Source: Nannocystaceae bacterium (GTDB lineage Bacteria; Myxococcota_A; Polyangia; Nannocystales; Nannocystaceae). Taken from it: DNA of 64,000 bases. Of this stretch, positions 5,276 through 64,000 are shown piece after piece. The DNA lies in NCBI GenBank assembly GCA_041389845.1, contig JAWKQZ010000037.1, positions 9,716 through 73,715 of the forward strand. The letters run 5' to 3'. Below the pieces are notes generated by a model. It did no database searches, had not been told where the DNA came from, and saw only the letters and a program-made list of their open reading frames with translations. A program made the translations under genes and the position numbers. Each line of letters opens with the position of its first letter. The stretch's first letter is position 1.

Positions 5276-5324
5276 GCGCCGGTCGCCAGCGGCCGAGCGC
5301 TGGTCCGCGCGCCGCCCTCTCGGA

Positions 5325-5590
5325 GCGCGCGGGCGCGGACGCGAGGTCGGCTCCCGCGAGCTGCGTCCTCGCGGCCCTTCCGTCTGCCGCTTCTTCGGCG
5401 CGCGCGGACGCGGCCGTGAGGTCGGCTCCCGCGACCTGCATCTTCGAGGCCCTTCCGTCTGCCGCTTCTTCGGCGCGCGCGGAGGTGGCCGCGAGGTCGG
5501 CTCCCGCGACCCGCATCTTCGCGGCCCTTCCGTCTGCCGCTTCGTCGGCGCACGGGGACGCGGCCGCGAGGTCTCCCTCGCAATCGCCCG
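5325..5590. repeat. 75-bp tandem repeat, about 3.5 copies
   Basis: GGTCGGCTCCCGCGA recurs at 5345, 5420 and 5495. It lies between the FKBP stop and the FGE-family start. Confidence 0.9.
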
Positions 5591-6732
5591 TGAACCGCGT
5601 CCTCGCGCCCGCTCCGCGCGTCGCTTCGTCGGACTCGGGCGTCGCCCGGCGCGTCGGCGCGCTCGCGGCCGCGCTCGCCCTCCTGAGCGCCTGTGACGGC
5701 GGCCGCAGCACCGACACGCCGAGCGCCTCGGCGCCCCCGCGGGCGGAGGTCGATCCGGCCGCGAGCTCCGGTCCCAAGGGACAGGTCCCTGAGGACAGGT
5801 CCCAAGAGCCAGCCTCCGAGGTCACCCCCGAGGTGGCCGAGGCCGCGACGCCGGACCCCGAGGCCCCGGAGGCGAAGGCCGAGGACGCCGCGCCCGCGCT
5901 CGCGGCCGCGCCCGACGGCACCCCGGCGATCCCTTGCGAGTCGCCGCCCGAGGACATGGCCTGCATCCCCGCCGGCCCCTTCCTCCGCGGCAGCGACGAC
6001 GGCCCCGAGAACGCCCGCCCGGCCGCGACGGTGTGGCTTCAGACCTACTACATGGATCGCAACGAGGTCACCTACGCCGAGTACAAGGCGTGCGTCCGCG
6101 CCCGCAAGTGCCCGATGTCGGGGCCGGCCTACAGCGACTTCGATCGCCCGCGGCAGCCGATCAACGGGATCTCGTGGCACGACGCGGTCGCCTACTGCCG
6201 CGCCCACGGCAAGCGCCTGCCGACCGAGGCCCAGTGGGAGAAGGCCGCCCGCGGCGACTCCGGCGAGCTCCACCCCTGGGGCGACGAGCCGGCGACCTGC
6301 GAGCGGGCGATCCTCCGCGACGCGAGCGGCCGCGGCTGCGGCGTGAAGAAGCAGGGGTCGAAGCCCGAGACCGGTCGACCCTGGGAGATCGGCTCGCGCC
6401 CCGCCTACCGCTACGGCCTCTACGACATGGCCGGCAACTCCTGGGAGTGGGTCGCCGACTGGTACACCCGCTCCTACGCCGAGTGCGGCGACGCCTGCCT
6501 CGGCGTCGATCCGAAGGGCCCCTGCGGCGGCGCCGACGAGTGCCCGGGGCAGAAGCGGAAGATCGTCCGCGGCGGCTCCTGGTACTGGCCGGCCGAGTAC
6601 GCGACGGCGATCTACCGCCGGCCCCACTTCCCCGAGAACCGGCCCTTCCATCACTTCGGCTTCCGCTGCGCGGCGACGGTCGACGACGCGGCGGCGCTCC
6701 GCGGCGCGGCCGGCTCGACGGCGACGCCCTGA
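5590..6732 (+). CDS. formylglycine-generating-enzyme (FGE/SUMF1) family lipoprotein
   Basis: C-terminal domain with CIPAGPFLRGS...NEVTYAEY...ISWHDAVAYC...LPTEAQWEKAARG...GNSWEWVADWY...VRGGSW...GFRCA. The putative lipobox ALALLSAC is preceded by a GTG at 5590 (start uncertain). The first 460 codons of the 839-aa track ORF are shadow frame. Confidence 0.8.
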   Translation: MNRVLAPAPRVASSDSGVARRVGALAAALALLSACDGGRSTDTPSASAPPRAEVDPAASSGPKGQVPEDRSQEPASEVTPEVAEAATPDPEAPEAKAEDAAPALAAAPDGTPAIPCESPPEDMACIPAGPFLRGSDDGPENARPAATVWLQTYYMDRNEVTYAEYKACVRARKCPMSGPAYSDFDRPRQPINGISWHDAVAYCRAHGKRLPTEAQWEKAARGDSGELHPWGDEPATCERAILRDASGRGCGVKKQGSKPETGRPWEIGSRPAYRYGLYDMAGNSWEWVADWYTRSYAECGDACLGVDPKGPCGGADECPGQKRKIVRGGSWYWPAEYATAIYRRPHFPENRPFHHFGFRCAATVDDAAALRGAAGSTATP

Positions 6733-7559: not shown

Positions 7560-7690
7560 TCGCCGTCGCGCGGGCGCGTGGGACCGCGTCGTCGGGCCGT
7601 GCACGCCTTCAGGCCGCGCCTGCCAGACCTCGCCCGCCCTCAGGCCGCGCCCGTCGTCAAACCGCGCCCGCCCTCCGACCTCGCCCGCCC

Positions 7691-8707
7691 TCAGGCCGCG
7701 CCGCGGGCCCGGACGCGCCGCCCCCGGGCCGCGATCAGGAGCGGAACCAAGAGCGCCAGCGCGTCGCCGCCGCGGGGGCTGGTCCGGCACTTCGAACACC
7801 CGCCCTCGTAGTCGATGCACGTGCACTCGTCGCACCCGGGGGCGCGGACGTCGATGCCGCTGGCCTCGCTCGCCCAGCAGAGGGCGGCGGGCGCGTTGAA
7901 GTAGAAGCCGCCGTCGCCGCAGCCCTGGCCGCGCGAGACGACGCCGACGAGGACGCGCTCGCCGTCCCGACCCCGTGCGAACGCGGGGCCGCCGGAGTCG
8001 CCCTGGCAGGAGTCGTGGCCGTCGCCGCCGGCGAAGAACTCGGTGAAGCTCGGGCTGTACTCGCGGAGCTTCACCTCGACCTCGCGCTTGGGGCCGCCCA
8101 CCTTGTCCGCGTCCTCGCCGTAGCCGACCACGGTGAGCACGTCGCCGGGCCGCATCGCCGCGTCCCACTCGTCCTGATCGGCGAGGACCCGGACCGGCGC
8201 GATCGGGGGCGCCTCGCGGAGGACGATCACCGCGACGTCGTACCAGTCCCAGACCGTCCCGCAATCCGGGCAGTACTCGGGGTGGAGCGCGTACGACTCG
8301 GCGCTCGTCTGCCAGGTCAACTGGTGGAGGTCGTCGCCGATCCCGACGCGGATCTTCTCCGGGAGCGTGCCGCCGTCGAGGCAGTGGGCGGCGGTCAACA
8401 CCAGCGTCGGCGCGATCAAGGTGCCGGTGCAGTCCTCGAGCGGGGTCAAGATCGCCACGGTGTCCAGGTAGGCGCCGGGGGTCACGGCGGCGCCGCCGAG
8501 GATCGGCTGCGGCGGCGGGGACGAGGGGCCGGCGATCGGCGCGTCGATCGGCGCGCCGCCTCCGACGAGCCCCAGGATCGCGGCGAGCACCAGCACCCGG
8601 CGAGCGTAGCCCCGATCGAGGCGAACGACGAGGCGCGTGTCTGCGCCGGCGCCCGGGATCGCGGCGCTGGGTCGGACCGAAGGGTCATTCGCCGCTGAGC
8701 GGGCCAC
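7691..8707 (-). CDS. secreted trypsin-like (S1) serine protease with a MYXO-CTERM-like tail
   Basis: Catalytic triad contexts LTAAHC, DVAVIVL and CQGDSGGP. The signal-like segment is RRVLVLAAILGLVGG. The C-terminus is GGCSKCRTSPRGGDALALLVPLLIAARGRRVRARG. The start is uncertain: GTG at 8707 or GTG at 8596. Confidence 0.85.
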   Translation of the reverse strand: MARSAANDPSVRPSAAIPGAGADTRLVVRLDRGYARRVLVLAAILGLVGGGAPIDAPIAGPSSPPPQPILGGAAVTPGAYLDTVAILTPLEDCTGTLIAPTLVLTAAHCLDGGTLPEKIRVGIGDDLHQLTWQTSAESYALHPEYCPDCGTVWDWYDVAVIVLREAPPIAPVRVLADQDEWDAAMRPGDVLTVVGYGEDADKVGGPKREVEVKLREYSPSFTEFFAGGDGHDSCQGDSGGPAFARGRDGERVLVGVVSRGQGCGDGGFYFNAPAALCWASEASGIDVRAPGCDECTCIDYEGGCSKCRTSPRGGDALALLVPLLIAARGRRVRARGAA

Positions 8708-10535: not shown

Positions 10536-10583
10536 GTGGCCCTCCGCGTGGCCCTCCGCGTGGCCCTCCGCGTGGCCCTTCGG
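10536..10583. repeat. 12-bp tandem repeat x4 (GTGGCCCTCCGC)
   Basis: Direct reading of 10536-10583. A looser CCTCCGC-rich tract continues to about 10700. Confidence 0.8.
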
Positions 10584-10708
10584 GGCTCTCCCCGCGTCCC
10601 TCCGCCGGGCCCTCCGCGCAGGACTCTCCTCGCGCCCCTCCGCCCGGCCCTCCGCGCGTCCGCTCCGCATGGCCCCTCCGCGCATCGCTCCGCGCGTCCC
10701 GCTGCGTA

Positions 10709-19170: not shown

Positions 19171-19260
19171 ACGCGCCGCGGCCCGGAGGCCCGCGCCGCG
19201 GCCCGCAGGCCCGCGCCGCGACCCGCAGGCCCGCGGCGCGGCCCGCAGGCCCGCGCCGCG
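19171..19260. repeat. 20-bp tandem repeat x4 (GCCCGSAGGCCCGCGCCGCG)
   Basis: Direct reading of 19181-19260, with a partial unit before it. Confidence 0.85.
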
Positions 19261-19356
19261 CTCCCGGTCACGCCGGCGGGATCTGCAGGAAGTCCGCGAC
19301 CTTGCCCACCGGCTGGTCCATGAAGGGCCACGGATCCCACGCGCGCAGGTCCACCG

Positions 19357-22129: not shown

Positions 22130-22145
22130 CTGTCCTTTGGGACAG
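22130..22145. repeat. perfect 16-nt palindrome CTGTCCTTTGGGACAG
   Basis: Lies 25 nt after the dioxygenase stop. An identical copy is at 44278-44293, with relatives elsewhere (see findings). Confidence 0.9.
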
Positions 22146-30854: not shown

Positions 30855-30928
30855 GCGGTCACGCCTCGGGCGCGGCCGAACGAGGGGGGCTCTCCTGGAG
30901 GAGAGCCCCCTTCGGCGCCTCTGGGCCC

Positions 30929-31333
30929 TCAACCCCTGCGCGCAGGGTCGGCCCCGTCGACGACCGACGCCCCCGGCGGGGTGTAGGTGATTTCGAAGCG
31001 GATCCCGTCGGGGTCGCCCATGAAGAGCGCGAGCGCCCCGTCGAGCTCCTGGGGCGCCGGCGCGACGAAGCCCGCGTCGATCATCGCCGCTCGGATCGCG
31101 CGGACCTCCGCCGGCGAGCCCGCGGCGAAGCCGAGGTGGTTCATGCCCGCGCCGTAGCGGGCGTAGGGGGCCGTCCCCGGCCGCGCCTCGAGGATCTGGA
31201 GCGAGAAGCCCTCGCCGTCGCTCCACACCCCCTCGCCGCGGCGCTCGAAGCCGAGGAGCGCGAGGAGGCGGGCGTAGTAAGGGAGGCTCTTCTCGAGCGA
31301 GGAGACGAGGAGGGTGAGGTGATCGATCTTCAT
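30929..31333 (-). CDS. VOC family (glyoxalase/bleomycin-resistance fold) protein
   Basis: From the ATG at 31333: MKIDHLTLLVSSLEKSLPYYARLLALLGF...GMNHLGFAA...DPDGIRFEI. Confidence 0.85.
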   Translation of the reverse strand: MKIDHLTLLVSSLEKSLPYYARLLALLGFERRGEGVWSDGEGFSLQILEARPGTAPYARYGAGMNHLGFAAGSPAEVRAIRAAMIDAGFVAPAPQELDGALALFMGDPDGIRFEITYTPPGASVVDGADPARRG

Positions 31334-31453
31334 GGCGCGGCGCGATCGAGGGTAGTTCGCGCGGCCGCCGAGCTGACCGCTCGCTCCCCCGATCGGGGAG
31401 GTCCCGGTCGCCGAGGCCCGTGATAGGCTGACCCCTCGTCGACGCGCTCGGCG

Positions 31454-32749
31454 GTGGAGGGGACGATGGTGCGGGGGATGGTGCGAGGGATGGTGCGGGG
31501 ATTGTCGGGTCATTCGTGGACGCGCGCGCGGGCGCGCGCCCTGGCGATTCCGGGGCTCCTGGCCGCGCTCGGCCTCGCCTGCGCCGGCGACGATCAGGGC
31601 GACTCGGGCGCGACCACCGGGGGCGCGACCTCGACGAGCGGCGATCCCAGCGGCGATCCCAGCGAGGGCACCACCACCGAGGGCACCGCCGGCACCACCA
31701 GCGACGGCGGCACCGCCAGCGGCTCGGCGACCCAGGGCACCACCGCGGCGACCACCGACGCGGGCACCACTACCGACGGGACGACCACCACCAGCACCAC
31801 CACCAGCGGCGAGAGCACGACCGACGACTCGACCACCGGCGTGAACCCGCCGGACCCGCGTCAGGTGCTCCTCGAGACCTACGCGCCGCGGGTGTGGTTC
31901 CCCGCCGACGAGGAGTACTTCCCGTCGACGGTCGAGCACTCCTTCGCCCACACCACCCGCTTCGCCGACGGCGAGGGCAAGCACTGGATCCGGACGATCG
32001 AGCCCCTGGAGAGCCCCTCCGACACCCTCCCCTTCTTCGCCGGCGACCTCGAGGGCGCGCCGGTGTATGCCTATTACGCCGACAAGGACGCCGCCGGCGT
32101 CGCCCCCGGCTTCGTCGACCTCGTCTATTTCTTCTACTACCCCTATAACCGGGGCAAGGAGGTCGTCGACACCATTTGGGGCAACCATGTCGGCGATTGG
32201 GAGCACATCACCGTCCGCCTCAAGGTCGAGGTCGACCTCACCCTCACCCCGGTCCAGGTCTACCTCTCGGCCCACTCCTTCGGCGGGGTCTACGAGTGGG
32301 CCGACGTCGAGCGCTTCGGCGACACCCACCCGGTGGTCTACTCCGCCTGGGGCTCCCACGGGGTCTGGAGCGGCCCCGGCGACCACGTCTATCAGACGAT
32401 CGGCGAGGAGGTCTGGGGCGTCTGCGTGACCCTCGTATGCACCGACCTCACCGACAACACCTCCGCCGGGATCCCCTGGGACACCTGGGAGGACGTCGCG
32501 GGGATGGACTACTTCGCCCAGGAGGGGATCGCTGGAACCCCCTGGCCGGCGTGGATGAGCGATCAATACACCGACCCGGGGCCGATGCCCGCCGACGTCC
32601 CTGGCAAGGGCCCGATCTACCGCTGGGGGAACGAGGAGGACTGCTCGACCCTCGGCGTCGATATCAGCGATCTGATCGGCGTATGCAGGCTCGAGGACGG
32701 GCCGACCGGGCCGGTGTCGAAGGACGTGTGGGGGGCGGAGCTGCTCTGA
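31454..32749 (+). CDS. lipoprotein with a Vps62/DUF946-like domain
   Basis: Lipobox LAALGLAC. Thr-rich linker. YAPRVWFPADEEYFPSTVE ... FYYPYNRGK ... GNHVGDWEHITVR resembles the Vps62 family signature. Assignment from memory. Confidence 0.8.
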   Translation: MEGTMVRGMVRGMVRGLSGHSWTRARARALAIPGLLAALGLACAGDDQGDSGATTGGATSTSGDPSGDPSEGTTTEGTAGTTSDGGTASGSATQGTTAATTDAGTTTDGTTTTSTTTSGESTTDDSTTGVNPPDPRQVLLETYAPRVWFPADEEYFPSTVEHSFAHTTRFADGEGKHWIRTIEPLESPSDTLPFFAGDLEGAPVYAYYADKDAAGVAPGFVDLVYFFYYPYNRGKEVVDTIWGNHVGDWEHITVRLKVEVDLTLTPVQVYLSAHSFGGVYEWADVERFGDTHPVVYSAWGSHGVWSGPGDHVYQTIGEEVWGVCVTLVCTDLTDNTSAGIPWDTWEDVAGMDYFAQEGIAGTPWPAWMSDQYTDPGPMPADVPGKGPIYRWGNEEDCSTLGVDISDLIGVCRLEDGPTGPVSKDVWGAELL

Positions 32750-37351: not shown

Positions 37352-38005
37352 ATGCAGACCACACCGAAGCTCTACGCCTTCCCCGGCTCCCCGAACTCGC
37401 GCCGCGTCCTCGCGGTGGTCGCCCACCTCGGCGTCGACGTCGACCTCCAGATCATCGACCTCTCGAAGGGCCAGTCGCGGACCCCCGAGTACCTCGAGAT
37501 CAACCCGATGGGCCGGACGCCGACCCTGGTCGACGGCGACTTCGTCCTCTGGGAGTCGAACGCGATCATCCAGTACCTCACCGATCGCGCCCGCGAGGCC
37601 GGCCACGCCGAGGCCGCGACCCTCCTGCCGACCGACGCCCGCGGCCGCGCCGACGTCACCCGGTGGCAGGCCTGGCAGATGAGCCACCTCGGCGCCGCGG
37701 TCCAGACCATCGTCTACGAGAACCTGGTCAAGCGGATGTTCATGGGCCAGGAGCCCGACGCGGTCGAGGTCGAGCGCGGCCTCCGGAACTACCACCCGAA
37801 CGCCAAGTTCCTCGACGCCCACCTGAACGGGCGGAGCTGGATCACCGGCGAGCACCTGACCCTCGCCGACTTCGCGATCGCGGCGGTCCTGATGTACGCG
37901 CCGATGGCCGGCGTCCCCCTCGAGGAGTACCCGAACATCCGCGCGTGGATGGGCCGGATGAACGAGCTCCCGGCGTGGAAGAAGTCGGAGCCGCGGATGC
38001 GCTGA
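37352..38005 (+). CDS. glutathione S-transferase
   Basis: MQTTPKLYAFPGSPNSRRV...INPMGRTPTLVDGDFVLWESNAIIQYL, plus a helical C-domain. Confidence 0.9.
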   Translation: MQTTPKLYAFPGSPNSRRVLAVVAHLGVDVDLQIIDLSKGQSRTPEYLEINPMGRTPTLVDGDFVLWESNAIIQYLTDRAREAGHAEAATLLPTDARGRADVTRWQAWQMSHLGAAVQTIVYENLVKRMFMGQEPDAVEVERGLRNYHPNAKFLDAHLNGRSWITGEHLTLADFAIAAVLMYAPMAGVPLEEYPNIRAWMGRMNELPAWKKSEPRMR

Positions 38006-38204
38006 TCCGACGGGCGCCCGGGGGGTCGGCGCGGACGCGTCGGCCGACCCCTCGAGCGGCGAGGCGGGCCCGCGCCCGCTCGGTGCCCTCCTGGCGAGGA
38101 CCGCGATCGCCTCCTCGCCTCGTCACCCTCGCCCCTTCGCCTCGTCACCCTCGCCCCGAACCGACGCTCTGCTCCTTCTCGGCGCGCCCGGACCCAGCGC
38201 GCGA

Positions 38205-38390
38205 GCGACTCTGCCACTCCCCTGAATGGGGGTGCCTCGCCTGCCCCCGATCGACTCTGCCACTCCCCCGAATTGGGGAGACTCGCCTGGCCCCATCCGA
38301 AACGCACACTCCCCCGAATCGGGGAGGCTCGCGAGGCCCCATTCGAAGCGCTCGCTCCCCCGAATCGGGGAGGACCGAGATCACGAGCCT
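38205..38390 (+). repeat. 46-bp tandem repeat x4, each unit carrying a perfect 18-nt hairpin CTCCCC-CGAAT(C/T)-GGGGAG
   Basis: Hairpins at 38217, 38263, 38309 and 38355 (exact 46-bp phasing). Degenerate copies lie near 38421 and 38548. The spacers between hairpins are homologous to each other. Confidence 0.9.
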
Positions 38391-38590
38391 CCCACGCCGC
38401 TCCGGGGCGCGGCGGGCGATTGCCCTCATTCGGGGCAGAGCGCCGCGAATGGCCGCATCGTCGGGATCCCGGGCGCCCTCGGATCCTCAATCGACGTCTC
38501 GCGGAAATAGCCGTCGACACCTCCGCGATCGCGGTGTACACGTACTCCCGGTTTGGGGACCCGCGTAGTCGGGTCGGGAGGGCGTAGGCG

Positions 38591-40213
38591 ATGAGCACTA
38601 TTGCGATCTCGATCGCAGGATTTGCGATCAATGTCACGATCGAGAGCGAGGGTCCGAATGGGATCACCGGCGTCCTCGACCTGACCCGATTCGAGATCGG
38701 CGGCGTCGAGCTCCTCCGGATCTCCTCGGCCACCGATCCGACCCAGGGCGCCCAAATCTCGATGTCGGCCGGATCCAATTGGGGCGCGACGATCACCGGC
38801 GAGATCGCGCTCCTCAACGGCGCGTGGTCGCAGTCCAAGACCTTCGCGGTCGCCCACGACAGCTTCTACGTCGAGCTGCCCTCGCTCGACCTCGGCAGCA
38901 ACGTCGGCCTCGGCGGCTCCTTCGCCTTCGCCGACGGGCAATTCACCGTCGATCTCACCGGCTCGGCCGAGGTCGGCTTCTCCTTCTTCGGCGTCACGGT
39001 CTCGCCGACCTTCGAGCTCACGCTCGGCACCACCATCGTCCCCGGCGCGCCGCCCTCGGTGGTCTACGCGCTCTCCGGGGGCGCCGGCGTCCTCGGGGTC
39101 TCGGTCCCGCTGCCGCCGCCGCCGCTCGCCTCGCCGATCACCTTCGAATCGCCGATCACCTCGGCGGCGGCGATCGGCGCCAAGATCTACGCGATCGCGA
39201 AGGACTTCATCGAGGACGTGATCTGGGACTACCTCCAGCGCTGGGCCCAGGAGCTCGAGAGGGCCGTGATCGCCGGCGCCGAGTTCGTCGCCAACTACGG
39301 CGCGCAGATCGTCGACGCGGTCGGCGACGGGCTGAGCGACCTCTTCGGCTCGTCCGACGACGGTCCGCCGCCGCCGATCCTCCCCAACGCCTTCGCCGAC
39401 GGGACCACGCCGCTCGGCGACGTCGCCCTCCAGTGGGGCCAGGCGTCGATCGCCGTCGACGAGGCCAAGGACTTCGACTTCGTCCGCCCCTTCGGGGGCG
39501 CCGCCGTCGCCGTCGCCCTCTGCGCCGCCCGCTCCGGCGTCCGCTCCGGCCTCTCGGTCAAGTCCCGCGCGAGCACCAAGTTCGTCCTCGACCGCGACAA
39601 CGCGATCGACGGGCTCATCCCCTTCCACTGGCTGGCGCTCGGCGCCGCCCCGGGGCGGACCCTCCCGACCAAGGGCTCGCGGACGATCGGCGACGTCCTG
39701 ATCCAGTGGGGCCGCGAGACCAGCGAGAGCGACGGCGTCCAGGTCTTCTCCCTCTCCTCCGCCTTCAACACCGCGAGCAGGGCCGGCCCGATCGTGATGA
39801 TCACCAACGCCGACACCGGCGGGGTCAAGGGCGCCTTCAACGTCACGACGATCGACGGCGCCGGCAAGACCTTCGCGATCAACCGCGACAACGCGATCGA
39901 CGGCGCGTTCCCGATCACCTACCTGGCGATCGGACCGGCGCCGGGGAAGAAGGTCCCCCAGGGGGTCCTCGCCGTCGACGACTTCCTCCTCCAGTGGGGG
40001 ATCGCCACCACCGACGCCGACGGCGAGCAGCGCTTCCTCTTCCCCCGCGCCTTCAAGACCATGAACTTCGCGGTGGTCACGACGTTCCACGCGGCCAACG
40101 CCCTCTCGGCGCTCTCCCAGTCCCGGCCGATCGATCCGGCGGGGTTCATCCTCGACCGCGACAACGCGATCGACGGCGCCTACTCCTTCTTCTGGGTCGC
40201 CGCCGGTCGGTGA
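38591..40213 (+). CDS. protein with a ~270-aa unknown N-domain plus three tail-fibre-tip-like (gp53-C / H-lectin-like) modules
   Basis: 540-aa ORF with no signal peptide. Three repeats of xxQWG...F..F...(V/I)V...DRDNAIDG..(F/Y)xW(L/V)AxG occupy 39420-40213. Confidence 0.8.
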   Translation: MSTIAISIAGFAINVTIESEGPNGITGVLDLTRFEIGGVELLRISSATDPTQGAQISMSAGSNWGATITGEIALLNGAWSQSKTFAVAHDSFYVELPSLDLGSNVGLGGSFAFADGQFTVDLTGSAEVGFSFFGVTVSPTFELTLGTTIVPGAPPSVVYALSGGAGVLGVSVPLPPPPLASPITFESPITSAAAIGAKIYAIAKDFIEDVIWDYLQRWAQELERAVIAGAEFVANYGAQIVDAVGDGLSDLFGSSDDGPPPPILPNAFADGTTPLGDVALQWGQASIAVDEAKDFDFVRPFGGAAVAVALCAARSGVRSGLSVKSRASTKFVLDRDNAIDGLIPFHWLALGAAPGRTLPTKGSRTIGDVLIQWGRETSESDGVQVFSLSSAFNTASRAGPIVMITNADTGGVKGAFNVTTIDGAGKTFAINRDNAIDGAFPITYLAIGPAPGKKVPQGVLAVDDFLLQWGIATTDADGEQRFLFPRAFKTMNFAVVTTFHAANALSALSQSRPIDPAGFILDRDNAIDGAYSFFWVAAGR

Positions 40214-40255
40214 GCCGGAGCCCCCCATTCAACGATCGATCGCCGAGGTGAGCTC

Positions 40256-41149
40256 ATGGCTGCGACCACCTTCCTGATTCAGATGACCAACGCCTCGAAG
40301 TCGTACCGCAACGGCTTCAAGGACAGCGCCACCGTCGGCGCCCTCAAGATCCAGTGGGGCCAGGACGTCTGCACCTCCGACGGCCTCCAGACCTTCAACT
40401 TCCCCAGCTCGTTCCACTCCGCCTGCTACGCGGTGGTGATCACCTCGTCGCTGCCGAACGCCCGCTCGGGCCTGCCGGTGGTCCTGCGCGAGAAGGGGCG
40501 CTTCGGCGTCGATCGCGACGGCGGCATCGACGGCCCCTACCCCTTCTACTGGATCGCGATCGGCGACGCGAGCGCGACCCCCGAGAGCGGCTCCTTCCTG
40601 CTCCCGGCGGACGAGGACGTCGCCCCCTGGCTCCTCTGGGGCGACCTGGTCAGCAACCTCGACGGCGACCAGAGCTTCACCACCTCGCGGGCGCTCCCCG
40701 CCGGCGCGTCGGCGATCGTGCTCAACACGACCCTCGCCAACCTCCGCAGCGCCCTCCCGGCGACCTCGTTCGACGGGGCGGGCCGGTCGCTGAGGGTCAA
40801 CCGCAACAACGACATCAACGGCTCGGTCGGCTTCTCCTACCTCGCCCTCGGCGGCGCCGCGACCGGGGCGCCCAACAGCGCGAGCGCGGCGGTCGCCCAC
40901 TTCGCCCAGGCGGGGTTCAAGATCCAGTGGGGCCGCTCGCGCAGCACCTCGGACTACGAGGAGCTCTTCATGCTCCCCGAGGCCTTCGCCGACATGAACT
41001 TCGCGGTGGTGACCGCCCTCAACACCTCGGGTCACCGCGCCGGGCTCGCGCTGAGCCGGCCGGTGAACCCCCGCTCCTTCATCGTCGATCGCGCGGGCGG
41101 CGACATCGACGGGCAGCGCGACTTCTACTGGATCGCCGTCGGCCGCTGA
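40256..41149 (+). CDS. protein made of three tail-fibre-tip-like modules (paralogue of the C-half of 38591..40213)
   Basis: 297-aa ORF starting 42 bp after the previous stop. KIQWG...FNFPSSFHSACYAVVIT...VDRDGGIDGPYPFYWIAIG, with two more copies ending FSYLALG and FYWIAVGR. Confidence 0.8.
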   Translation: MAATTFLIQMTNASKSYRNGFKDSATVGALKIQWGQDVCTSDGLQTFNFPSSFHSACYAVVITSSLPNARSGLPVVLREKGRFGVDRDGGIDGPYPFYWIAIGDASATPESGSFLLPADEDVAPWLLWGDLVSNLDGDQSFTTSRALPAGASAIVLNTTLANLRSALPATSFDGAGRSLRVNRNNDINGSVGFSYLALGGAATGAPNSASAAVAHFAQAGFKIQWGRSRSTSDYEELFMLPEAFADMNFAVVTALNTSGHRAGLALSRPVNPRSFIVDRAGGDIDGQRDFYWIAVGR

Positions 41150-45852: not shown

Positions 45853-45898
45853 GCGATCACCGCGGGCCCCTCGCCAGGGGCCCCCTCGTACCGACGAC

Positions 45899-46083
45899 GC
45901 GGCGTTCGTCCGCGCTCCGGACGGCCGCCCCCTCGACGCGGCGTTCGTCCGCGCTCCGGACGGCCGCACCCTCGACGCGGCGTTCATCCGCGCTCCGGAC
46001 GGCCGCACCCTCGACGCGGTCTGCCACCGGGCCGAATCGACGATCGCCGCGGGGCGCCTCGCCGGGCCCCCTCGTACGCGAGC
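45899..46083. repeat. degenerate duplicate of the VOC gene 3' end, with its first 39 bp amplified x3
   Basis: GCGGCGTTCGTCCGCGCTCCGGACGGCCGC(C/A)CCCTCGAC occurs x3 (45899-46015). Then GCGGTCTGCCACCGGGCCGAATCG... follows, mirroring 45790-45898. Confidence 0.9.
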
Positions 46084-46098
46084 GCCCGCGCCTCGTTC

Positions 46099-46260
46099 GC
46101 GCGGGCGCGAGGTCGAGGGGTCGCGCGGGCGCGAGGGCGAGGGGTCGCGCGGTCGAGGGGTCGCGCGGACGCGAGGTCGAGGGGTCGCGCGGGCGCGAGG
46201 TCGAGGGGTCGCGCGGGCGCGAGGGCGAGGGGTCGCGCGGGCGCGAGGTCGAGGGGTCGC
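46099..46260. repeat. 24-bp tandem repeat, about 7 copies (GCGCGGGCGCGAGGTCGAGGGGTC)
   Basis: Direct reading; one unit is truncated to 16 bp. It is followed at 46282-46297 by the palindrome CTGTCCCTTTAGACAG. Confidence 0.9.
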
Positions 46261-47934: not shown

Positions 47935-48207
47935 GCCCGACGCCCGCGGGGCCTTCCGCGTCGGTGCTCTCGGTCCGTCGGCGCCCCCGTCGGCGGGCCG
48001 GGCCGTCGAGGGCTGCGTCCTGCGTCGGCGGGGCGCGGCGACGGCCGTCGAGGGCCACGGATGGCCGCGTCGGTGCTCCGCGCCGGCGACACCGCCCGCG
48101 GCCGCGTCCGCGACCCGCGTCGGCGACCCGCGTCGGCGACCGCTTCGACGGCCGCGTCCGCGACCTCTTCGACGACCGCGTCGACGGCCCGCGTCCGCGT
48201 CCGCGGC

Positions 48208-63772: not shown

Positions 63773-64000
63773 GGGCGAGGACTCTACCGCAACCGCGCTC
63801 GGCTGCCTCGGGGCGCCGGCCCCCTCCCCTCGCGGGATCCCGAGGGCGCGCCCGTGATCCCCCGCGGGTGGCCGCGGCCCGCCTCACGCGCGCGTCGACG
63901 CGAGCGGCCCGCGGCCGCGATCACGCGCGCGTCGACGCGATCACCCGCGGCCCGACGCGCGCTCGCGGGCGATCGCAAGGAGCCGGCGCCCGGTCGGGCG

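What the first reader, a model, noticed from the sequence alone, without database searches (positions are those of the whole stretch)
38205..38440. Phased array of four perfect 18-nt hairpins upstream of the tail-fibre-like cluster, with a near-identical copy upstream of another gene
Seen in the sequence:
- CTCCCCTGAATGGGGG begins at 38217. CTCCCCCGAATTGGGGAG begins at 38263. CTCCCCCGAATCGGGGAG begins at 38309 and again at 38355.
- The spacing is exactly 46 bp. Each is a 6-bp G/C stem with a ~6-nt loop.
- Weaker copies lie near 38421 (TGCCCTCATTCGGGGCA) and 38548.
- The 28-nt segments between hairpins are related to each other, so this is a tandem repeat and not spacer-like.
- The array sits in the 585-bp gap between the GST stop and the 38591 start.
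- A strikingly similar element, CGCTCGCTCCCCCGATCGGGGAGGTCCCG, is at 31376-31405. It lies about 55 nt upstream of the Vps62-like lipoprotein gene. Compare GCGCTCGCTCCCCCGAATCGGGGAGGACCG at 38348-38377.

Inference: this is a dispersed palindromic operator or leader-RNA element. The palindrome CCCCGA(A)TCGGGG would suit a dimeric DNA-binding protein. As RNA, the array would form four tandem stem-loops followed by GGAGG-like tracts.
Basis: seen in the sequence. Interest (0 to 1): 0.62.

Follow-up and report, generated by a model that had tools for sequence, protein, structure and literature searches.

The report
Tandem hairpin repeat between two genes
A 46-base DNA unit carrying a small GC-rich hairpin is repeated four to five times head to tail in front of a lectin-like gene pair of an uncultured myxobacterium, with a decayed copy 7 kb away. 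It looks like an ordinary lineage-specific hairpin repeat rather than a dedicated gene switch.

Summary
A 46-bp tandem array lies at 38205-38388, with a decayed fifth unit running to about 38445. It carries the hairpin CTCCCC-N6-GGGGAG at exactly 46-bp spacing. A second locus (31345-31420) is homologous over about 1.3 units, not only over the hairpin.

The host is a 74% GC Nannocystaceae-like MAG from wastewater. I found no trace of this element in any of these searches:
- about 0.7 Mb of related myxobacterial DNA;
- upstream of three homologous lectin cassettes;
- downstream of the GST gene in relatives (about 76-91% identical);
- plasmid or viral collections, or Rfam.

No metatranscriptome assembly holds the array, although the neighbouring GST gene is well expressed in those runs. 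The window holds at least eight other clearly intergenic tandem arrays and another REP-like palindrome family. Paired or tandem CTCCCC/GGGGAG hairpins are widespread in other phyla as TMECO/BoxC-type elements.

Best reading (0.45): a lineage-specific REP/TM-like hairpin repeat, amplified by this genome's habitual intergenic tandem duplication. An operator array (0.2) or a leader RNA (0.1) is not excluded. I class it as a new member of a known kind, of low to moderate interest.

The parts
38205..38250 (+). Unit 1 of the 46-bp array. Its hairpin at 38217-38234 is imperfect (CTCCCCTGAATGGGGGTG).
   Evidence: (nhmmer E=1.3e-9)
38251..38296 (+). Unit 2. Hairpin CTCCCCCGAATTGGGGAG at 38263-38280.
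   Evidence: E=3e-11; -10.9 kcal/mol
38297..38342 (+). Unit 3. Hairpin CTCCCCCGAATCGGGGAG at 38309-38326. It is preceded by a C-tract block, GGCCCCATCC.
   Evidence: (-11.7 kcal/mol)
38343..38388 (+). Unit 4, the last full unit. Hairpin at 38355-38372. Its right-hand part is the edge of the array.
38389..38445 (.). Decayed fifth unit with a hairpin TGCCCTCATTCGGGGCA (38421-38437). It resembles the family hairpin only on the opposite strand.
   Evidence: E=1.6, minus strand; -13.1 kcal/mol
31345..31420 (+). Second locus, about 1.3 units (a decayed unit plus an intact hairpin CTCCCCCGATCGGGGAG at 31384-31400). It lies in the 132-bp divergent gap between the VOC gene and the Vps62-like gene.
   Evidence: score 46 vs 19.7+-2.5; E=0.047; 22.9 bits, E=0.003
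37352..38005 (+). Glutathione S-transferase gene upstream of the array. A strong hairpin lies at about 38022-38051, just after the stop codon.
   Evidence: Pfam GST_N/GST_C; RNA contigs end at 38088 and 38159
38591..41149 (+). Pair of genes with Gp53-like_C (phage tail-fibre tip) modules, downstream of the array.
38504..38542 (+). Candidate promoter region of the lectin pair, downstream of the array. It holds GAAATAGCC (shared with other cassettes), then TCGACA-17 nt-TACACG, with the palindrome CCGCGATCGCGG in the spacer.
   Evidence: sequence. Compared with L124 and L126. Inference only; the consensus scan found no promoter.
30929..31333 (-). VOC/glyoxalase gene, divergent from the Vps62-like gene. 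The solo repeat begins 12 nt from its start codon.
31466..32749 (+). Vps62-like lipoprotein gene. The ATG at 31466 follows GGAGGGG. The solo hairpin ends 66 nt upstream of it.

Best explanation
**What it is.** The array is a lineage-specific, short, hairpin-bearing intergenic repeat. It is of the same general kind as REP/REPIN, BoxC/TMECO and pneumococcal boxB elements. The unit is 46 bp: a C-tract block, a 9-10 nt linker, and the hairpin CTCCCC(C)-loop-GGGGAG(G). It is present at two or more intergenic sites.

**How the array probably arose (inferred).** At 38.2 kb the unit has been amplified head to tail. The palindrome extrudes as a hairpin in single-stranded DNA during replication. This favours slippage or template switching between neighbouring copies. 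The same process has filled many other intergenic gaps of this genome with tandem arrays. A piece spanning a unit junction was copied to, or from, the second locus by ectopic recombination or by an unidentified element-specific enzyme.

**Effect on genes.** Any effect on the neighbouring genes is incidental, not the reason the array exists.

**Shown:** the anatomy, the homology between the two loci, the lack of conservation, the lack of RNA coverage, and the repeat-rich genomic background.

**Inferred:** the duplication mechanism and the lack of a dedicated function.
For: 1. The whole unit, not only the hairpin, is shared by the two loci across a unit junction.
2. All substitutions among units 2-4 and the solo copy fall in the loop, including a 1-nt deletion. 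This is what a hairpin tolerates.
3. The window holds at least eight other clearly intergenic tandem arrays, up to about 14 non-coding arrays in all. It also holds other CTNNCC-N4-GGNNAG palindromes, at 22130, 26640, 30890 and 44278.
4. No copy was found in 0.73 Mb of Myxococcota relatives with a covariance model or with regular expressions.
5. None lies upstream of homologous lectin cassettes.
6. None lies within the 100-260 nt downstream of GST that the contigs of relatives with 76-80% identical protein cover.
7. In a relative about 91% identical in GST DNA, the sequence diverges right at the stop codon.
8. Only DNA runs hold 38160-38590. RNA contigs cover GST at depth 13-52 but not the array.
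9. Paired or tandem CTCCCC-N6-GGGGAG hairpins occur in at least 120 loci of many phyla, against well under one expected (rough estimate from pattern size and database size, not a shuffle test). They include direct tandem arrays of 29-62-nt units in Chloroflexi, Competibacter and a cyanobacterium.
10. The literature describes tandem REPIN arrays (PMC3337134) and ties TMECO triplex repeats to slippage and instability (PMC4666352).
Against: - Only two loci are known, 7 kb apart.
- No other contig of DNA run X1 shares about 20 nt or more with the array, so high-identity copies elsewhere are few or absent.
- Both loci lie upstream of genes. One sits in a divergent promoter gap, where REP-type elements are usually under-represented.
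- The hairpins are in direct orientation, not the inverted orientation of REPINs.
- No transposase or RAYT gene is in the window.
- Hairpins that vary less than the linkers would fit binding sites under selection equally well.
Confidence: 0.45

Rival explanations
1. Operator or upstream-site array. The 18-bp near-palindromes are binding sites for a sequence-specific protein. That protein would co-regulate or insulate the lectin-like operon and the Vps62-like lipoprotein gene. The four to five sites are spaced 46 bp apart.
For: - The hairpin or palindrome varies less than the linkers: 1/18 against 10/28 variable columns for units 2-4, p=0.03; 3/18 against 13/28 for all units, p=0.06.
- Both loci have the same orientation and lie upstream of genes for exported proteins.
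- The array lies about 130-300 bp upstream of the candidate promoter, a position typical of activator sites.
- An AraC-type regulator and a sigma-54 activator are encoded in the window.
Against: - Half-site spacing differs, 0 against 1 nt, between the solo copy and the array.
- 46 bp is 4.4 helical turns, so the sites are not on one face of the helix.
- The element is not conserved upstream of homologous cassettes.
- No sigma-54 promoter is recognisable by eye.
- No regulator gene lies next to either locus.
- Tandem arrays are commonplace in this genome.
Confidence: 0.2
2. Purely local neutral minisatellite. A stretch that happened to contain a palindrome was duplicated in tandem, and one ectopic copy was made 7 kb away. 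On this reading there is no family, no recognition by any protein, and no function.
For: - There are only two loci in 64 kb.
- No other near-identical copy is present in DNA run X1.
- The genome duplicates intergenic DNA everywhere.
- The excess conservation of the hairpin is only marginal once the array edge is removed.
- Unit 1 differs from unit 2 as much in the hairpin (3/18) as in the linkers (5/28).
Against: - Units 2-4 and the solo copy keep the 12 stem bases intact, while linkers differ by 30-50%.
- The same hairpin type recurs as repeat families in many phyla, which suggests the structure itself matters.
Confidence: 0.2
3. RNA element. The hairpins would act in a transcript, as 5' leader stem-loops, stabilisers, or a small RNA.
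For: - The solo hairpin is inside an RNA contig of run X3 (31202-31898, depth 11). That contig joins the 5' ends of the VOC and Vps62-like genes.
- Each hairpin contains GGAG(G) in its 3' arm, so it could sequester a Shine-Dalgarno-like tract.
Against: - No RNA run holds the array. The lectin genes are covered only patchily at depth 3-8, so a weak leader cannot be excluded.
- There is no Rfam match even at E<=1.
- There is no covariation, because the stems are identical.
- The minimum-energy fold of the whole region does not keep hairpins 3 and 4, and both strands fold equally well (z=-2.4 and -2.7).
- No start codon follows the GGAGG tracts.
- The candidate promoter lies downstream of the array.
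Confidence: 0.1

Closest known systems
REP / REPIN elements with RAYT transposases (Enterobacteria, Pseudomonas; PMC3116915, PMC3337134)
   Same: - A short GC-rich imperfect palindrome of about 18-20 nt in extragenic DNA.
- G/C-run cores, as in P. fluorescens GGGGGCTTGCCCCC.
- It occurs singly and in ordered tandem arrays of up to five.
- The stem is more conserved than the loop.
   Different: - The hairpins here are in direct orientation, not inverted doublets.
- Only two loci are known.
- Both are upstream of genes rather than at 3' ends.
- No RAYT gene has been seen.
- There is no conserved GTAG-type 5' tetranucleotide.
TMECO / BoxC / PIT intrastrand-triplex repeats (PMC4666352)
   Same: - A C-block/G-block hairpin of CTCCCC/GGGGAG type.
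- Strictly intergenic.
- A third G/C tract lies at a fixed distance: GGCCCCATCC, 9-10 nt before the hairpin, in the orientation a pyrimidine third strand would need.
- TMECO is linked to slippage and local instability.
- The many hits are mostly of this family.
   Different: - The blocks are 6-7 nt, not 9.
- The third block is only C4 and is interrupted by an extra A.
- The second loop is 9-10 nt, not 3.
- The arrangement is direct tandem, not inverted pairs.
- The chance of such a third block upstream is about 0.2, so membership is not shown.
Pneumococcal BOX elements, boxB modules (PMC3049150)
   Same: A hairpin-forming module of about 45 nt, present in variable tandem number in intergenic DNA. 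It is often upstream of genes and can alter their expression.
   Different: - No distinct terminal boxA or boxC modules.
- No sequence similarity.
- A different phylum.
- Copy-number variation between strains has not been shown here.
sopC-type plasmid centromere (F plasmid: 12 tandem 43-bp units, each with a 7-bp inverted repeat; own knowledge)
   Same: The architecture: tandem units of about 45 bp, each carrying one short inverted repeat.
   Different: - Chromosomal context.
- No parA/parB-type genes in the window.
- No similarity to any plasmid.

Membership tests
REP/REPIN-RAYT | Short imperfect palindrome (about 20 nt) located in extragenic DNA | tested here: met
   An 18-nt hairpin lies in two intergenic gaps.
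REP/REPIN-RAYT | Tens to hundreds of copies per genome | tested here: inconclusive
There are 2 loci in 64 kb. No other near-identical copy is present in the contigs of DNA run X1.
REP/REPIN-RAYT | REP doublets in inverted orientation that form a long hairpin (REPIN) | tested here: not met
   All five strong copies are on the + strand, in direct orientation, at 46-bp spacing. There is only one weak inverted hairpin, at 38421 (E=1.6).
REP/REPIN-RAYT | A cognate single-copy Y1 (RAYT) transposase gene flanked by REPs | not testable with these tools
   None is present among the Pfam-annotated genes of the window.
TMECO/BoxC/PIT triplex motif | Three consecutive 9-nt blocks, CCCTCNCCC-N3-6-GGGNGAGGG-N3-GGGNGAGGG (PMC4666352) | tested here: not met
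   The unit has CTCCCC(C)-N5-6-GGGGAG(G). Its only third block is CCCC[A]TCC, 9-10 nt upstream. The consensus was read.
TMECO/BoxC/PIT triplex motif | Intergenic, multi-copy, often as inverted pairs | tested here: inconclusive
   Intergenic: yes. Copies: two loci. Arrangement: direct tandem, not inverted.
Pneumococcal BOX | Modular boxA-(boxB)n-boxC, with terminal inverted repeats | tested here: not met
   No distinct conserved terminal modules flank the array or the solo copy. Outside the unit the flanks are unrelated.
Operator for a dimeric transcription factor | Fixed half-site spacing, and conservation in front of orthologous genes | tested here: not met
   The spacing is 1 nt in the array and 0 nt in the solo copy. 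The element is absent upstream of the cassettes L124, L125 and L126.
Known structured RNA (Rfam 15) | Match to a covariance model | tested here: not met
   No match at the gathering threshold over the window, or at E<=1 over 37950-38650.
CRISPR array | Identical repeats separated by unrelated spacers | tested here: not met
   The 28-nt intervals are related to each other: 5/28 differences between units 1 and 2, and 9/28 between units 2 and 3.
sopC-like centromere | Adjacent partition genes, or a plasmid context | tested here: not met
   No ParA/ParB genes in the window. No plasmid similarity.

The most novel reading that the evidence does not exclude
The evenly spaced hairpins could be a binding array for a dedicated protein that recognises the CTCCCC-loop-GGGGAG palindrome, as duplex or as extruded hairpin. 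That protein would couple the expression or insulation of two exported-protein loci: the tail-fibre-tip lectin operon and the Vps62-like lipoprotein. The number of units would set the strength. A variant of this reading: the unit is a myxobacterial, direct-tandem branch of the pan-bacterial CTCCCC/GGGGAG triplex-type repeats, whose fold drives its own amplification.
Probability: 0.15. Interest if true: 0.55.

Novelty: new member of a known kind. Interest (0 to 1): 0.25.

Why it matters
If the best reading holds, this is one more example of bacterial intergenic DNA being shaped by small hairpin repeats and rampant tandem duplication, here in a poorly sampled Nannocystaceae lineage. It also cautions against reading regular spacing as regulatory design.

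It would matter more in two cases:
- The complete genome shows a promoter-biased regulon.
- The element proves to be a direct-tandem relative of the TMECO/BoxC class, whose spreading mechanism is still unknown.

Tried and rejected
- **Exact 18-mer in 185,579 reference genomes.** 34 single hits with unrelated flanks, at chance level. The window's genome is not in that collection.
- **Relaxed 17-19-mer.** In viral contigs there were 4 single hits.
- **Synteny route.**
  - The lectin protein found no relatives in genome contigs.
  - GST relatives there are 40% identical or less.
  - The aldolase/SDR protein gave 80 loci, 62-66% identical at best. None carries the window's neighbouring genes and none carries the motif.
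- **Counting copies with Logan contigs.** The approach picks up pieces of about 19 nt or more. It found only the array's own contig.
- **Copy-number polymorphism.** Only one DNA contig spans the array, and it is identical to the window.
- **Transcript 3' end of GST at 38088.** A DNA contig ends at the same place, so this may be an assembly effect and was not used as evidence.
- **Other rejected readings.**
  - Terminator: no T-run, and the solo copy lies between divergent starts.
  - Coding repeat: a period of 46 is not a multiple of 3, and there is no GC3 signal.
  - CRISPR, riboswitch, and plasmid centromere or iteron.
  - Sigma-54 promoter, by eye only.
- **Alignment of the unit to Chloroflexi and Caulobacterales elements.** It recovers only the hairpin that the search pattern selected for, so it is no evidence of homology.

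Full report
**Observation**

Tandem Repeats Finder gives one array at 38215-38373 with period 46, 3.5 copies and 83% matches.

- Hairpins: CTCCCCCGAATTGGGGAG starts at 38263, and CTCCCCCGAATCGGGGAG starts at 38309 and 38355. A variant, CTCCCCTGAATGGGGGTG, starts at 38217.
- The pattern CTCCCC-N4-7-GGGGAG has four matches in the window, against 0.2 expected. The fourth is CTCCCCCGATCGGGGAG at 31384.
- Each hairpin folds at about -11 to -12 kcal/mol as RNA and -5 to -6 kcal/mol as DNA. That is moderately better than shuffles.
- The first hairpin is imperfect. The '38548 copy' is not distinguishable from background. The 38421 hairpin belongs to a decayed fifth unit and resembles the family only on the opposite strand.

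**Anatomy**

In register the units are 38205-38250, 38251-38296, 38297-38342 and 38343-38388.

- Across the four units, 1 of 12 stem columns varies, 2 of 6 loop columns, and 20 of 28 linker columns.
- Much of that contrast comes from the right half of unit 4, which is simply the edge of the array. Without it the figures are 3/18 against 13/28 (p=0.06) for all units, and 1/18 against 10/28 (p=0.03) for units 2-4.
- The hairpin is therefore probably, but not certainly, under more constraint than the linkers.
- All differences among units 2-4 and the solo copy lie in the loop. They include a 1-nt deletion that changes the spacing of the half-sites CCCCGA/TCGGGG from 1 to 0.

**The second locus**

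The second locus is more than a hairpin. 31345-31405 aligns with 38318-38377 across a unit junction, with score 46 against 19.7+-2.5 for shuffles. It is therefore a decayed array of about two units.

It fills the divergent gap between a VOC/glyoxalase gene (start codon at 31333, minus strand) and the Vps62-like lipoprotein gene (ATG at 31466).

A unit HMM and a covariance model find nothing else in the window.

**Context**

The window is 74% GC chromosomal DNA. The organism is Nannocystaceae-like: its best protein relatives are Paraliomyxa, Enhygromyxa and Plesiocystis, at 57-66% identity. It is found in wastewater metagenomes.

- The window contains no transposase, RAYT or partition genes.
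- Its regulators are an AraC-type protein, a sigma-54 activator and Ser/Thr kinases. None lies next to the repeat.
- Tandem arrays are a habit of this genome. TRF lists about 14 other non-coding arrays with units of 12-98 bp, at least eight of them clearly intergenic.
- Other CTNNCC-N4-GGNNAG palindromes occur at 22130, 26640, 30890 and 44278.

**Conservation**

- The exact 18-mer, and a relaxed version of it, give only single hits with unrelated flanks in reference genomes, metagenomes and viral contigs.
- About 0.73 Mb of Myxococcota loci contain no copy.
- Three homologous lectin-pair cassettes (37-42% identical protein) have no such hairpins upstream. One has an unrelated heptamer array instead.
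- GST relatives with 76-80% identical protein carry other palindromes downstream.
- In sludge metagenomes a relative about 91% identical in GST DNA diverges completely from the window at the stop codon.
- The element is therefore young or fast-evolving, and specific to this lineage.

**Transcription**

- In three metatranscriptome assemblies GST is covered at depth 13-52 and the lectin genes patchily at 3-8. The array has no coverage.
- A word search with the intergenic stretch alone finds DNA runs only.
- This excludes the array from the abundant GST transcript. It cannot exclude a weakly expressed lectin leader.
- The contig end at 38088 also occurs in a DNA run, so I do not use it as a 3' end.
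- The solo hairpin does lie inside one RNA contig (X3, 31202-31898). In another run the Vps62-like contig starts at 31443, downstream of the hairpin.
- Rfam has no match.
- Both strands of the region fold equally well.
- A sigma-70-like candidate promoter (TCGACA-17-TACACG, 38514-38542) lies downstream of the array. So does GAAATAGCC at -87, which recurs at -88 in Enhygromyxa salina. Both are inference from sequence.

**The wider class**

- Most hits are inverted pairs of the three-block TMECO/BoxC/PIT type, for example CCCTCTCCCCGCATGCGGGGAGAGGGCTAGGGTG in Rhizobiaceae.
- Some are direct tandem arrays of 29-62-nt units, in Chloroflexi MAGs L252 and L350, Competibacter L300 and a cyanobacterium L319.
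- The published consensus is CCCTCNCCC-N3-6-GGGNGAGGG-N3-GGGNGAGGG. It is intergenic, has no promoter or terminator activity, and is linked to local instability (PMC4666352).
- The present unit has a C-tract (GGCCCCATCC) 9-10 nt before the hairpin, in the orientation a third strand would need. It is short and interrupted, and would arise by chance about one time in five. Alignments recover only the hairpin that the search selected for.
- Membership is therefore not shown, but the kind is clearly not new.
- REPIN arrays of up to five tandem units, and boxB arrays of 45-nt modules, are further precedents.

**Verdict**

The best-supported reading (0.45) is a lineage-specific hairpin repeat of the REP/TM kind, amplified in tandem by replication slippage at an extruding palindrome.

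| Reading | Odds |
|---|---|
| Lineage-specific hairpin repeat, tandemly amplified | 0.45 |
| Purely local minisatellite | 0.2 |
| Operator array | 0.2 |
| RNA element | 0.1 |

One whole-genome scan would largely decide between these. I class the finding as a new member of a known kind, with interest 0.25.

Noticed in passing
window 30884-30913: A long perfect palindrome, GGGGGGCTCTCC-TGGA-GGAGAGCCCCC, lies between the convergent stops of the PD40 lipoprotein gene (30854) and the VOC gene (30929). It looks like a bidirectional terminator and has the same CTNNCC/GGNNAG stem type as the other hairpin families.
   Followed up: no
window 38504-38512; L124 5862-5870; L126 500-508: The motif GAARTAGC(C/G) lies at -87 and -88 from the start codon of the lectin-pair cassette in the window and in Enhygromyxa salina, and at -56 in a third cassette. 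The true start of the E. salina gene appears to be the ATG at 5950, not the called 6001. This may be a conserved promoter or regulator site of the cassette.
   Followed up: partly
window, e.g. 1951-2310, 5320-5573, 7595-7702, 10536-10700, 19172-19289, 45895-46260, 48065-48205, 63872-63954: Intergenic gaps of this genome are unusually rich in tandem arrays with units of 12-98 bp. At least eight are clearly intergenic within 64 kb. This points to a genome-wide duplication process.
   Followed up: partly
L367 1150-1185; L368 1075-1120: Downstream of the GST gene in two relatives (76-80% identical protein), the palindrome GGACATGTCC occurs two to three times a few bases apart. It is a different repeat at the same position.
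   Followed up: no
L350 3755-3905 (Chloroflexi MAG VBHJ01000125.1); L252 4620-4760: Direct tandem arrays of a three-block element: CCCCTCC, then a connector hairpin with a GNA-type loop, then CCACCTCCCC-ATGAAT-GGGGAGG. In L350 the array lies just upstream of a gene that looks, from the sequence by eye, like a cysteine synthase (not checked against Pfam). The same element occurs in Brevundimonas and Caulobacter (L320, L282).
   Followed up: partly
window 38020-38052 and 38107-38157: A strong hairpin, GGGGTCGGC...GCCGACCCC, starts 17 nt after the GST stop and is probably its terminator, without a T-run. It is followed by a separate 22-nt repeat of 2.3 copies (TCGCCCCCTCGCCTCGTCACCC).
   Followed up: no
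L126 1-125: Upstream of a homologous lectin cassette there is an unrelated array of heptamers, (GAGAACC)n/(GAGAGTC)n, at the contig end.
   Followed up: no
window 38309-38326, 38355-38372, 31384-31400: The hairpin loops carry short restriction- or methylation-type palindromes: GAATC (a GANTC site) in units 3 and 4, and CGATCG/GATC in the solo copy. TTCGAA lies in the linker between units 3 and 4. This is probably coincidence.
   Followed up: no
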